Position numbers and translations under genes: made by a program. Shown here in pieces: positions 5,701-7,035 of a stretch of 16,481 bases of DNA (position 1 is its first letter; every line of letters starts with the position of its first letter). This DNA comes from a virus (Duplodnaviria; Heunggongvirae; Uroviricota; Caudoviricetes), in IMG/VR virus record IMGVR_UViG_2563366825_000024; one strand, written 5' to 3'. Below the pieces are notes generated by a model that saw nothing but the letters and a program-made list of their open reading frames with translations, made no database searches and had not been told where the DNA came from.

Positions 5701-5727
5701 AAAAAAAGCCCGACACGATGGTCGGGC
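5701..5727 (-). terminator. Putative intrinsic terminator between the 420-aa gene and the giant gene
   Basis: On the minus strand: GCCCGAC-CATCGT-GTCGGGC followed by TTTTTTT (plus-strand A-run 5701-5707). Sits 46 nt after the 420-aa stop and just before the giant gene's SD and ATG. Confidence 0.5.
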
Positions 5728-5772
5728 GTAAGTGAACGAGATTAACGGTGAGTGCGTTACTGCCGCGTATTT

Positions 5773-7035
5773 TTACTTCATCCAGCCTTTGATCTTCTCG
5801 GCAGATGCGGAAGCGCTATAATCCAGCGCCTTTTCATGCTCTGCCTTTTTATCCCTGAGGTGATTCTGGTAATAAATTTCCACCTCCTTTTCACGACCAG
5901 GTTCCAGCAAAGCAGGCATATTGGCGGCAGTCGCTTTTACAAACTCCTGTTTAACCGGATCGCCCGCCGCCCACGTCTGCCACTTCTGTAAAAGCTGTTG
6001 GGTTTTCTGTTGCTGAATTTTCTGTTGATGCGGTTGTGAACCAGTCGCAGCATAATATTCATCCACCGCAGCCTGTGCATTACCGCCATTCTTGATCGCG
6101 TCCGCCGCTACGTTGCTGGCCCCCTTCTGAAGCTCTTTCAGAGAAAGTCCCTGCTGCTTCGGCATAAAATAACCATAATTTTTCGATATCTCTGCAAATT
6201 TGCTGCGATCCCTGACCTGAGCGATAGCCTTATCAACGGGTATCGCCAGCACGGTTTGATCATCAGGGTGCGCACTGCCGTATTCTGTTACAGGTTTATG
6301 CGCGGTGGAGCCATCGCTGTATGTGAGATCAAGGCCAATAAGTACGTACCCTTCCTGCTGCGCCGGTACGATACTGCCAATCCTGGCCTCTTTTATCGTT
6401 TTTTCCCCGGTTGAATCAGGCATGCCAATACGCTGTTGTAGTTCCGGGGCAAACACGCCGGAAAGCACATCGAGATTTTCCGGGGTATTCAGCGAAGCAA
6501 TCGCCCTGTCCGGCTTATCATCAAAGATTTTCTGCAGGTTGTTCACGGCCTGACCCGCTTTCGCAGCATAGCCTACCGTTGACATCATCTTAAGCGGATT
6601 GGCGTCCGATAATTTACCGAACAGATGAGAAGCCGCATCATGGTCACCCGCATCAATCGCTTTTCCCAGCGCCGCCATCACAGGCTGATCGCGCGCCAGC
6701 ATATCGTTATACTCAAGCCGTCGCTGGTTGTATTTCTGCAACTGGAGTCGTTGCTGTTCCATCCCCAGCGACGCATTCCGGTAATTCTGGTTGGCGTTAA
6801 ACTCCCTTTCCTGCAGTGTGTAATTGCGGTCATCAACTTTGGCTCTGTAATCAAAGTTCCGCTGATCAACGTCTTTATTATGTTCAAACTGAGACTGCGC
6901 AAATTCAAAATCGCGCTCGTTATTTTTCTGTTGCTGAGCAAGCTGTGCTTCTCGCAAACCAAGCTCCTTACGACGGGTCATTGCCTGGTCAACAGTGCTG
7001 AATCCGGCAAGTAACCCCTGTGCAAATCCGCTCAT
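5773..7035 (-). CDS. Hypothetical protein, 420 aa, Gln/Asn-rich with coiled-coil-like N-terminal half
   Basis: ATG at 7033-7035 with AAGGAG 6 nt upstream, overlapping the stop of the upstream 83-aa gene. Long ORF, co-directional and tightly packed with neighbours. No family recognised. Confidence 0.75.
   Translation of the reverse strand: MSGFAQGLLAGFSTVDQAMTRRKELGLREAQLAQQQKNNERDFEFAQSQFEHNKDVDQRNFDYRAKVDDRNYTLQEREFNANQNYRNASLGMEQQRLQLQKYNQRRLEYNDMLARDQPVMAALGKAIDAGDHDAASHLFGKLSDANPLKMMSTVGYAAKAGQAVNNLQKIFDDKPDRAIASLNTPENLDVLSGVFAPELQQRIGMPDSTGEKTIKEARIGSIVPAQQEGYVLIGLDLTYSDGSTAHKPVTEYGSAHPDDQTVLAIPVDKAIAQVRDRSKFAEISKNYGYFMPKQQGLSLKELQKGASNVAADAIKNGGNAQAAVDEYYAATGSQPHQQKIQQQKTQQLLQKWQTWAAGDPVKQEFVKATAANMPALLEPGREKEVEIYYQNHLRDKKAEHEKALDYSASASAEKIKGWMK

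What the first reader, a model, noticed from the sequence alone, without database searches (positions are those of the whole stretch)
5701..5775. Terminator-like hairpin between co-directional genes, with the giant gene in the same frame as the upstream 420-aa gene
The 420-aa gene and the giant gene share a reading frame and are separated by a single TAA (5773-5775) followed by 28 sense codons, a strong GC hairpin plus U-run, an SD and an ATG. The hairpin could act as a partial terminator or attenuator that sets the stoichiometry of the giant protein relative to the upstream proteins. The shared frame also leaves open low-frequency stop-codon readthrough or a recent nonsense split, though a one-in-three chance coincidence is the simplest explanation.
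Basis: seen in the sequence. Interest (0 to 1): 0.35.

Follow-up and report, generated by a model that had tools for sequence, protein, structure and literature searches.

The report
Conserved terminator before giant phage gene
The hairpin is a real, conserved transcription terminator just upstream of the giant virion-protein gene of Shiga-toxin-type short-tailed phages, and the shared reading frame of the two genes is an accident, so this is an ordinary regulatory element.

Summary

The window is the distal late region of a 933W/Sp5-like prophage. The 420-aa gene matches Sp5 ORF79 and the giant gene matches ORF80, an LPD5/LPD1/MuF_C polyvalent protein.

The hairpin is not chance. Strict terminator criteria find four sites in the window, all on the late-gene strand, against 0.003 expected. 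Its stem covaries among relatives. A terminator-type hairpin occupies the same gene junction in seven lineages, two of them with unrelated hairpin sequences, including Vibrio phages.

The shared frame is coincidence (about 0.11 by chance). Relatives show all three frame offsets because the T-run is 7, 8 or 9 long. The 933W type has a second in-frame TAA. No fusion with the giant protein was found in any database.

Most likely role: an intrinsic terminator that only antiterminated (Q-modified) late transcription passes. It gates, and perhaps lowers, giant-gene expression. That role is inferred, not measured.

In this window an IS/Tn cluster has cut off the operon's upstream part.

The parts
5773..7035 (-). 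420-aa gene, homologue of 933W L0133 / Sp5 ORF79 (ECs1241); stop codon TAA at 5775-5773
   Evidence: ORF list and translation. It matches phrog_601 with E 1e-195. It aligns with annotated L0133/ECs_1241. ORF79 is essential for Sp5 tail formation (PMC5155283).
5689..5772 (-). 84-nt intergenic spacer; it reads as 28 sense codons in the frame shared by both genes
   Evidence: The spacer is not conserved as coding sequence: relatives carry frameshifting indels or an in-frame TAA. The part 5' of the hairpin diverges strongly from 933W.
5708..5727 (-). Terminator hairpin GCCCGAC-CATCGT-GTCGGGC (7 bp, 6 G-C, loop of 6 nt)
   Evidence: -12.4 kcal/mol. All 10 haplotypes pair at every position. 2 of 7 pairs changed on both sides, 1 became a wobble pair and none is broken.
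5701..5707 (-). U7 tract directly after the stem; it is 7, 8 or 9 T long in close relatives
5694..5697 (-). Shine-Dalgarno GGAG, 5 nt before the ATG and 3 nt after the U tract
   Evidence: The motif GGAGTCTGTATGGC is invariant in the 40 enterobacterial loci examined.
1..5688 (-). 5' part (at least 1895 codons) of the giant gene, homologue of 933W L0134 / Sp5 ORF80 (ECs1242, 2793 aa); start ATG at 5688-5686; the ORF runs off the window
   Evidence: Pfam finds LPD5, LPD1 and MuF_C. phrog_616. 99.66% identical to the SCU-104 'LPD38 domain-containing protein' gene. ORF80 is essential.
8436..8453 (-). Co-oriented terminator after the L0129 homologue
   Evidence: Also present in Sp5.
8782..8803 (-). 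Co-oriented terminator downstream of the hok/gef-family gene (8964-9104)
   Evidence: The hok annotation is in the near-identical SCU-104 prophage.
9294..9314 (-). Co-oriented terminator after lom (9337-10074)
   Evidence: Also present in Sp5.
10983..16481 (.). IS/Tn cluster that replaces the upstream part of the late operon in this window. It contains an IS3-family fragment, IS30, an IS600-type orfB, a truncated Tn3-family transposase and a resolvase.
   Evidence: Similarity to the intact SCU-104 prophage stops at 10982. Pfam and BLAST identify the IS and Tn genes.

Best explanation
The element is a genuine, evolutionarily maintained Rho-independent (intrinsic) terminator. It lies in the spacer between two separate genes of the late operon of 933W/Sp5-like short-tailed lambdoid phages. 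The upstream gene encodes the roughly 420-aa ORF79-type tail-assembly protein. The downstream gene encodes the roughly 2800-aa ORF80-type polyvalent protein.

The U tract abuts the giant gene's Shine-Dalgarno sequence, so there is no room for a promoter. Every transcript of the giant gene must therefore pass through this terminator.

In intact relatives, passage is provided by late transcription from pR' with Q-modified, terminator-resistant RNA polymerase. Unmodified polymerase stops here. Such polymerase could start at the lom or hok/sok morons or at stray promoters in the prophage. The 8.4-kb giant gene is thus expressed only in lytic development, and possibly at a somewhat lower level than the upstream genes.

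The shared reading frame of the two genes is accidental.

Shown: the anatomy, the excess over chance, conservation and covariation, separate genes, and variable frame. Inferred: actual termination, readthrough by Q-modified polymerase, and the gating role.

In this particular window the upstream late operon has been replaced by insertion sequences, so the element is an inherited relic here.
For: - Anatomy: canonical hairpin, U7, then SD and ATG.
- Chance: 4 strict terminators in the window, all on the late-gene strand, against 0.003 expected. Sp5 has at least 8 on its late-gene strand.
- Covariation: A-U changes to G-C at one pair, G-C to G-U to A-U at another, and C-G to U-G at a third. Pairing is 100% in 10 haplotypes. 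Slid controls pair at only 24-43%.
- Boundary: similarity to 933W resumes exactly at the 5' base of the hairpin (window 5727), while the adjacent spacer and the gene ends are diverged.
- Family-wide position: a hairpin plus U-rich tract (-10.6 to -16.3 kcal/mol) lies at the same junction in seven lineages. Two of them have unrelated stem sequences: L144/L145 (AGCCTGC-TTAT-GCAGGCT, then AAGGAG) and Vibrio phages 1.205.O and D96a. The Vibrio proteins are homologous to the window's pair. In 24.4 kb of the Vibrio phage this is the only site meeting my criteria.
- The giant gene must be expressed: ORF79 and ORF80 are each essential in Sp5 and each is complemented in trans (PMC5155283).
- Antitermination context: the near-identical SCU-104 prophage has a Q-like antiterminator (phrog_753). 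All of its lysis and morphogenesis genes are co-directional down to the giant gene. Q makes RNAP terminator-resistant (PMC6606751 and bioRxiv 10.1101/651190, abstracts; PMC7547250).
- Upstream transcription in lysogens: the lom-ECs1237 spacer gives Hfq-bound reads on both strands in uninduced Sakai. Sense reads over ECs1242 are low (PMC4104026 supplement).
Against: - I had no transcript data (Term-seq or RNA-seq) for this site, so termination and readthrough efficiencies are unknown.
- The hairpin is conserved in phages whose late regulation is unknown (the Vibrio lineage, where a promoter-like site follows the hairpin). It also always sits next to the giant gene's ribosome-binding site. Both points would fit a role tied to giant-gene dosage, mRNA stability or translation at least as well as insulation.
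- No promoter specific to the L0130-L0133 block was found, so it is unclear how much unmodified transcription ever reaches this site.
- Covariation rests on only about three independent lineages.
- In the window itself no late promoter or Q gene remains upstream.
Confidence: 0.6

Rival explanations
1. Dosage device. The hairpin lowers giant-gene expression relative to the upstream genes even during lytic growth. It could do so by residual termination of the late transcript. It could also act as a 3' stem-loop that protects the upstream mRNA segment from exonucleases while the long downstream segment decays. Either way the giant virion protein would be made in low copy number. This overlaps with the best explanation and does not exclude it.
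For: - A hairpin lies at exactly this junction in all seven lineages, including Vibrio phages where it is the only such site in 24 kb.
- It always lies immediately 5' of the giant gene's RBS.
- The giant gene is seven times longer than its neighbour and costly to express.
- Terminator-like hairpins also follow the portal and major-capsid genes in Sp5, as expected for dosage control.
Against: - Q-modified RNAP is described as termination-deficient, so attenuation should be small in the enterobacterial phages.
- No expression or virion copy-number data are available.
- In the Vibrio phages a promoter-like site follows the hairpin, which points to a separate transcription unit rather than attenuation.
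Confidence: 0.3
2. Translational readthrough of the TAA, or a recently split gene. Under this view the 420-aa and giant proteins are, or recently were, one polypeptide.
For: In the window the two ORFs share a frame and 28 sense codons lie between them.
Against: - Frame offsets of 0, 1 and 2 all occur among close relatives (T7/T8/T9 and other indels). The 933W/Sp5 type has a second in-frame TAA. The Vibrio phages have spacings of 118 and 119 nt.
- The stop codon is UAA.
- The top 120 homologues are 376-421 aa long.
- Of 72 cluster representatives drawn from about 15 billion proteins, the near-full-length matches are 345-579 aa and the rest are shorter fragments. The one exception is 1386 aa, and its extension shows no detectable similarity to the giant protein.
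- The giant gene has its own invariant SD and ATG.
- Each gene is complemented separately in Sp5.
- The coincidence has a probability of about 0.11.
Confidence: 0.01
3. The spacer encodes, or is processed into, a small Hfq-binding RNA derived from the 3' UTR of the 420-aa gene. The hairpin and U7 tail would be its terminator and Hfq-binding module.
For: - A U tail of at least 7 after a terminator is typical of Hfq-dependent sRNAs.
- Prophage structural-gene spacers do encode such sRNAs (Pas sRNAs, bioRxiv 10.64898/2026.05.13.724894; EcOnc RNAs, PMC4104026).
Against: - There is no promoter-like site in or just upstream of the spacer.
- The sequence 5' of the hairpin, where a seed would lie, is the least conserved part.
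- There is no Rfam match.
- The site is not among the orphan Hfq peaks in Sakai, although sites within 100 bp of a CDS were filtered out there.
- No paper in the library contains this sequence.
Confidence: 0.05
4. The hairpin is a chance palindrome or a DNA-level feature, such as a short conserved linker that promotes recombination between mosaic phage modules. It would have no RNA function.
For: The junction is a mosaic boundary. Both gene ends and the 5' spacer differ from 933W, while the hairpin, SD and ATG are conserved.
Against: - A hairpin of this quality is expected 0.003 times per window.
- All strong sites in the window lie on the transcribed strand.
- The stem changes by compensatory substitutions rather than being conserved as sequence.
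- Distant lineages have different sequences but the same structure plus U tract.
Confidence: 0.03

Closest known systems
Intrinsic terminators inside antiterminated late operons of lambdoid phages. The closest case is the terminator after ant, just upstream of the tailspike gene 9 of phage P22 (Berget, Poteete & Sauer 1983, recalled from memory). Terminators that close 'moron' insertions are a related case (Juhala et al. 2000, as cited in PMC4104026).
   Same: - A GC hairpin plus U tract sits between co-directional genes of a late operon, upstream of an essential virion gene.
- The downstream gene can be reached only by polymerase that reads through.
- The P22 record annotates such a terminator at 16012-16035, before gene 9 at 16204.
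- The window has the same kind of terminators after lom and hok.
   Different: - Here the upstream unit (L0130-L0133) is not an obvious moron and has no detected promoter of its own.
- The U tract directly abuts the next gene's SD.
- The position is conserved well beyond the enterobacterial lambdoid phages, in Vibrio phages.
- Termination and antitermination have not been measured at this site.
Partial terminators and intercistronic stem-loops that set expression ratios within operons, for example T7 T-phi after the capsid gene and the malE-malF REP stem-loops (from general knowledge)
   Same: A stable stem-loop lies between a shorter upstream gene and a long downstream gene. Differential mRNA abundance on its two sides is plausible.
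   Different: There is no evidence here for partial termination or differential stability. T7 uses its own RNA polymerase. REP elements are repeated families, whereas this hairpin occurs once.
Programmed translational recoding in phage structural genes (lambda G/GT-type frameshifts; Q-beta A1-type stop-codon readthrough)
   Same: Two adjacent virion genes share a frame in this one sequence.
   Different: The frame is not conserved, the most common relatives have an extra in-frame stop, the stop is UAA, the downstream gene has an independent SD and ATG, and no fused homologues exist.

Membership tests
Rho-independent (intrinsic) terminator | G+C-rich stem of about 5-14 bp with a short loop (3-8 nt) | tested here: met
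   7-bp stem with 6 G-C pairs, 6-nt loop, -12.4 kcal/mol.
Rho-independent (intrinsic) terminator | Uninterrupted U-rich tract immediately 3' of the stem, on the transcribed strand | tested here: met
   T7 at 5707-5701 directly after the stem on the minus strand. On the plus strand no T-run follows the hairpin.
Rho-independent (intrinsic) terminator | Placed downstream of a stop codon and co-oriented with the gene | tested here: met
   The hairpin begins 45 nt after the TAA of the 420-aa gene, on the same strand.
Rho-independent (intrinsic) terminator | Structure maintained in evolution (compensatory changes) | tested here: met
   100% pairing in 10 haplotypes and 2 of 7 pairs changed on both sides. 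Non-homologous hairpins occupy the same position in two further lineages. Few of these events are independent.
Rho-independent (intrinsic) terminator | RNA 3' ends or transcript release at the U tract, in vivo or in vitro | not testable with these tools
   No transcript data were accessible. The Term-seq of Sakai (PMC7547250) has no supplementary tables held.
Terminator bypassed by Q-type processive antitermination | Located downstream of pR' and Q in one co-directional late operon | tested here: inconclusive
   Met in the near-identical SCU-104 prophage (Q-like phrog_753) and in Sp5/933W. Not met in the window itself, where an IS cluster replaces everything upstream of 10982.
Terminator bypassed by Q-type processive antitermination | Downstream gene is expressed in lytic growth despite the terminator | tested here: met
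   Sp5 ORF80 is essential for infectious particles (PMC5155283). The 20 nt between the stem and the ATG leave no room for a promoter.
Programmed stop-codon readthrough or split gene | Frame relation conserved among relatives, with no further in-frame stops | tested here: not met
   Offsets 0, 1 and 2 all occur, and the 933W type has a second in-frame TAA.
Programmed stop-codon readthrough or split gene | Fused homologues exist somewhere | tested here: not met
   The single 1386-aa relative shows no detectable similarity to the giant protein in its extension.
Hfq-binding sRNA (3' UTR-derived or independent) | Own promoter or processing site, a conserved seed, and Hfq association | tested here: inconclusive
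   No promoter-like site. The region 5' of the hairpin is poorly conserved. No Rfam hit. Not in the Sakai orphan Hfq peak table, but that screen excluded sites within 100 bp of a CDS.

The most novel reading that the evidence does not exclude
The terminator in front of the giant gene may be an ancient, family-wide design feature of phages that carry the gene pair of a roughly 430-aa protein and a giant polyvalent protein, from E. coli Stx-type phages to Vibrio phages. It would be a dual-purpose module. The hairpin and U tract would limit transcription into the giant gene, possibly even for antiterminated polymerase. They would also form the 5' edge of the giant gene's translation-initiation region, with a U-rich leader next to the SD. 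Together these would fix a low copy number of a costly, possibly toxic, injected protein.
Probability: 0.2. Interest if true: 0.4.

Novelty: new member of a known kind. Interest (0 to 1): 0.17.

Why it matters
The practical value is modest.

- It fixes the true start of the giant gene. The original 933W GenBank annotation of L0134 starts 13 codons too early, inside the terminator stem.
- It shows that ORF79-type and ORF80-type proteins are separate products.
- It identifies a conserved control point in front of the largest gene of Shiga-toxin phages. That gene is essential for infectious particles, so the site is an obvious place to test how expression of this giant polyvalent protein is restricted to lytic growth.

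It does not reveal a new mechanism.

Tried and rejected
- Rfam search of the whole window at gathering thresholds, and of 5550-5950 at E up to 10: only sub-threshold noise.
- Literature searches for the hairpin sequence, for ECs1241/ECs1242/L0133/L0134 and for terminators in the 933W late operon. Only Mondal et al. 2016 deals with these genes, and it does not mention terminators.
- Term-seq data of Sy et al. 2020: no supplementary tables are held. Plunkett et al. 1999 is not held.
- Pas sRNA paper: no match to this sequence.
- Genome-contig scan with the giant N-terminus: only a spurious 31-residue hit in a Xanthomonas contig.
- A long-range pairing in the MFE fold, between the A-run at the stop codon and the U tract. 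I rejected it because the A-run is absent in other haplotypes.
- An alternative hairpin that would sequester the SD (5712-5690). It is made mostly of G-U pairs, so I did not pursue it.
- The one long homologue, P0150 (1386 aa), as a possible natural fusion with the giant protein. BLASTP gives colinear but non-significant matches (best E 0.41), hhalign probability is 0.8%, and it sits in a satellite-like island with no giant gene beside it. Rejected as evidence of fusion.
- Homology of the 420-aa family to P22 ejection proteins gp16 and gp20, suggested by a precomputed Pfam hit on P0150. Not detectable by hhalign, PDB, Pfam or NCBIfam.
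Full report
**1. What is in the sequence**

All relevant genes are on the minus strand. The 420-aa ORF runs 7035..5773 and ends with TAA (5775-5773). The next 84 nt translate in the same frame as 28 sense codons, up to ATG 5688. This ATG opens an ORF that is still open after 1895 codons at the left edge of the window.

Within the spacer lie, in order:
- the hairpin GCCCGAC-CATCGT-GTCGGGC (5727-5708);
- seven T (5707-5701);
- ACT;
- GGAG (5697-5694);
- TCTGT;
- the ATG.

The 20-nt hairpin folds at -12.4 kcal/mol.

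**2. Is it more than chance?**

I required a perfect stem of at least 7 bp with at least 5 G-C pairs, a loop of 3-8 nt and at least 6 T in the next 8 bases. The window then contains four sites, all on the minus strand:
- 9314-9294, after lom;
- 8803-8782, after a hok-family gene;
- 8453-8436, after the L0129 homologue;
- 5727-5708.

300 dinucleotide-preserving shuffles gave a mean of 0.003 sites per window.

The shared frame is unremarkable by contrast. About 32% of shuffled spacers have no in-frame stop, and a frame match has probability 1/3. Together this gives about 0.11.

**3. What the locus is**

The region matches 186 phage records, essentially all Stx-converting or related short-tailed Sepvirinae phages such as 933W, Sp5/VT2-Sakai and ArgO145. 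It also matches 424 of 5426 complete E. coli genomes.

- The 420-aa gene corresponds to 933W L0133, which is Sp5 ORF79 (ECs1241).
- The giant gene corresponds to L0134, which is ORF80 (ECs1242, 2793 aa).
- The giant protein carries LPD5, LPD1 and MuF_C domains, so it is a 'polyvalent protein'.
- Mondal et al. showed that ORF79 and ORF80 are each essential for Sp5 tail formation and that each is complemented in trans by its own cloned gene (PMC5155283).

**4. The frame relationship in relatives**

I extracted the stop-to-ATG interval from 40 enterobacterial loci. They fall into 11 haplotypes.
- Window type, with T7: 87 nt, same frame, no extra stop. A second haplotype, L009, has the same spacing.
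- T8 variants (PhiR12_3 and others): 88 nt, offset 1.
- T9 variant (ArgO145): 89 nt, offset 2.
- 933W/Sp5 type: 72 nt, same frame but with a second in-frame TAA.
- A further type: 71 nt, offset 2.

More distant lineages give 77 nt (offset 2) and offset 2 again. Two Vibrio phages give 118 and 119 nt.

No fusion was found.
- The 120 best homologues of the 420-aa protein are 376-421 aa long.
- An exhaustive HMMER search of 1.84 billion cluster representatives found 72 relatives. The near-full-length matches are 345-579 aa and the rest are shorter fragments. One relative is 1386 aa.
- The extra part of that protein has no significant similarity to the giant protein. It sits in a satellite-like island with no giant gene next to it.

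**5. Conservation of the hairpin**

Across the 10 aligned enterobacterial haplotypes (the eleventh, L031, shares the L040 spacer sequence) every stem position pairs in every sequence.
- One pair switches from A-U to G-C.
- The closing pair runs G-C, then G-U, then A-U.
- One pair becomes U-G.
- Partners slid by 1-3 columns pair at only 24-43%.

Against 933W, nucleotide similarity disappears in the last 75 or so codons of the 420-aa gene and in the 5' part of the spacer. It resumes exactly at the first base of the hairpin.

Lineages with 63% (giant N-terminus) and 43% (420-aa protein) identity keep GCCCGG-CATTATGA-CCGGG(T/C), followed by T5-6 and GGAG.

Two lineages have unrelated hairpins at the same place:
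- L144/L145: AGCCTGC-TTAT-GCAGGCT, then TTTCTGTTTTT, then AAGGAG.
- Vibrio phages 1.205.O and D96a: CCCGC-CTAGT-GCGGG, then TTTTCTTTTG.

In the Vibrio phages the 442-aa and 3130-aa proteins are homologous to the window's pair. Within 24.4 kb of the 1.205.O genome this is the only site on either strand that meets my criteria. All seven versions fold at -10.6 to -16.3 kcal/mol. The element is therefore selected as a structure, at this specific junction.

**6. Context that bears on mechanism**

(a) In the enterobacterial lineages only 10-20 nt separate the stem from the ATG. No promoter fits there, so the essential giant gene can be transcribed only through the terminator.

(b) The prophage of E. 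coli SCU-104 is 99.66% identical to window 1-10982. It has a Q-like antiterminator (phrog_753) in the canonical position. All of its lysis and morphogenesis genes are co-directional down to the giant gene. Q-loaded RNAP is pausing- and termination-deficient. Stx-phage late genes depend on this (PMC7547250).

(c) Sp5 has at least eight terminator-like hairpins on the late-gene strand, after the portal gene, the capsid gene, lom and others. Reading through terminators is therefore normal for this operon.

(d) In uninduced Sakai, the lom-ECs1237 spacer yields Hfq-crosslinked reads on both strands. Sense reads over ECs1242 are low (PMC4104026 supplement). Some transcription thus arises inside the late region of the prophage, upstream of this terminator.

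The closest precedent I know is the terminator between ant and the tailspike gene 9 of P22. It is annotated in the P22 record. Berget, Poteete and Sauer (1983; recalled from memory, not read here) reported that it restricts gene 9 expression to antiterminated late transcription.

**7. Interpretation**

The best-supported reading is an intrinsic terminator that unmodified polymerase obeys and antiterminated late polymerase ignores. Giant-gene expression would then depend on lytic development.

A dosage role cannot be separated from this with sequence alone. Such a role could work through residual termination or through protection of the upstream mRNA. It is favoured somewhat by the family-wide conservation at exactly this junction and by the constant juxtaposition with the giant gene's ribosome-binding site.

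The sRNA idea has no support:
- there is no promoter;
- the 5' part is poorly conserved;
- there is no Rfam hit;
- the site is not among reported Hfq peaks, although that screen excluded sites close to CDSs.

Readthrough or a split gene is rejected.

**8. A caveat specific to this window**

From position 10983 onward the window is no longer phage. It is a cluster of an IS3-family fragment, IS30, an IS600-type orfB, a truncated Tn3-family transposase and a resolvase. The breakpoint lies inside the L0126 homologue.

In this genome the tail-fibre, capsid, terminase, lysis and Q genes are therefore not upstream. The terminator and the still-intact giant ORF belong to a decapitated prophage remnant. 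No record in the three annotated collections contains this junction.

**9. Verdict**

The terminator reading is sound and now rests on comparative evidence. The frame coincidence is only a coincidence. The element is an ordinary kind of regulatory signal, not described before for this site as far as I could find. It has one mildly interesting property: it is conserved in front of the giant gene across very distant phages.

Noticed in passing
window 10983-16481: The phage late operon is cut off here, inside the L0126 homologue. It is replaced by an IS/Tn cluster: an IS3-family orfB fragment (10991-11737, minus strand), IS30 transposase (11961-13112, plus), an IS600-type orfB (13197-14015, plus), a truncated Tn3-family TnpA with DUF4158 (14012-15730, minus) and a resolvase (15891-16481, plus). 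The IS30 to resolvase part is 100% identical to E. coli plasmids of about 100 kb. No record in the three collections carries the junction with the prophage.
   Followed up: partly
window 8964-9104 (minus strand) and 8782-8803: A Hok/Gef-family toxin gene lies between lom and the L0129 homologue (annotated in the near-identical SCU-104 prophage). It has its own co-oriented terminator. Terminator-like hairpins at 8781-8804 and 8932-8955 on the plus strand might belong to a Sok-type antisense RNA. Rfam gave no hit at gathering threshold.
   Followed up: no
L001 (933W, AF125520.1) 9236-9275; corresponds to window 5688-5727: The original GenBank annotation of 933W L0134 (2806 aa) starts at an ATG inside the 5' arm of the terminator stem. 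This is 13 codons upstream of the conserved SD-ATG that RefSeq uses for Sakai ECs_1242 (2793 aa). The upstream ATG is absent in the window haplotype, so the downstream ATG is the real start.
   Followed up: yes
window 5701-5707 and homologous positions in L002, L005-L007, L010, L011: The terminator's T-run is length-polymorphic (7, 8 or 9 T) among otherwise nearly identical spacers. This looks like homopolymer slippage. It is what moves the two genes between relative frames.
   Followed up: yes
window 5311-6001: This is a mosaic patch relative to 933W/Sp5. The last 75 or so codons of the 420-aa gene are unalignable at DNA level. So are the 5' spacer and 5311-5455 inside the giant gene (codons 78-126). 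The first 77 or so codons of the giant gene (5456-5688) align at only 84%. Flanking regions are 91-93% identical.
   Followed up: partly
window about 199-281 (plus strand, antisense to the giant gene): This is the homologous position of EcOnc36, an Hfq-bound antisense RNA candidate inside ECs1242 of Sakai (1301433-1301515, minus strand, found in 5 of 5 CRAC data sets; PMC4104026 Table S2). ECs1242 ranks 17th among Hfq-bound features, almost entirely through antisense reads. I saw no obvious terminator in the window sequence there.
   Followed up: partly
L044 (Vibrio phage 1.205.O, MG592575.1) 10377-22426; L045 (Vibrio phage D96a): The block of three small genes, a roughly 440-aa protein and a giant protein of 3066-3130 aa is syntenic with L0130-L0134 of the Stx phages, despite only about 28-31% protein identity. 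In these phages a promoter-like site (TTCACC-17-TATGAT, L044 12979-13007) lies between the terminator and the giant gene.
   Followed up: partly
L148 10001-14161 (P0150, GCA_051468635.1): A 1386-aa relative of the 420-aa protein (27% identity over its first 270 residues) is encoded in a satellite-like island with an integrase, AlpA and a primase. It carries a precomputed Pfam hit to Phage_P22_gp16. This hints that the 420-aa family belongs with the ejection proteins. I could not confirm homology to P22 gp16 or gp20.
   Followed up: partly
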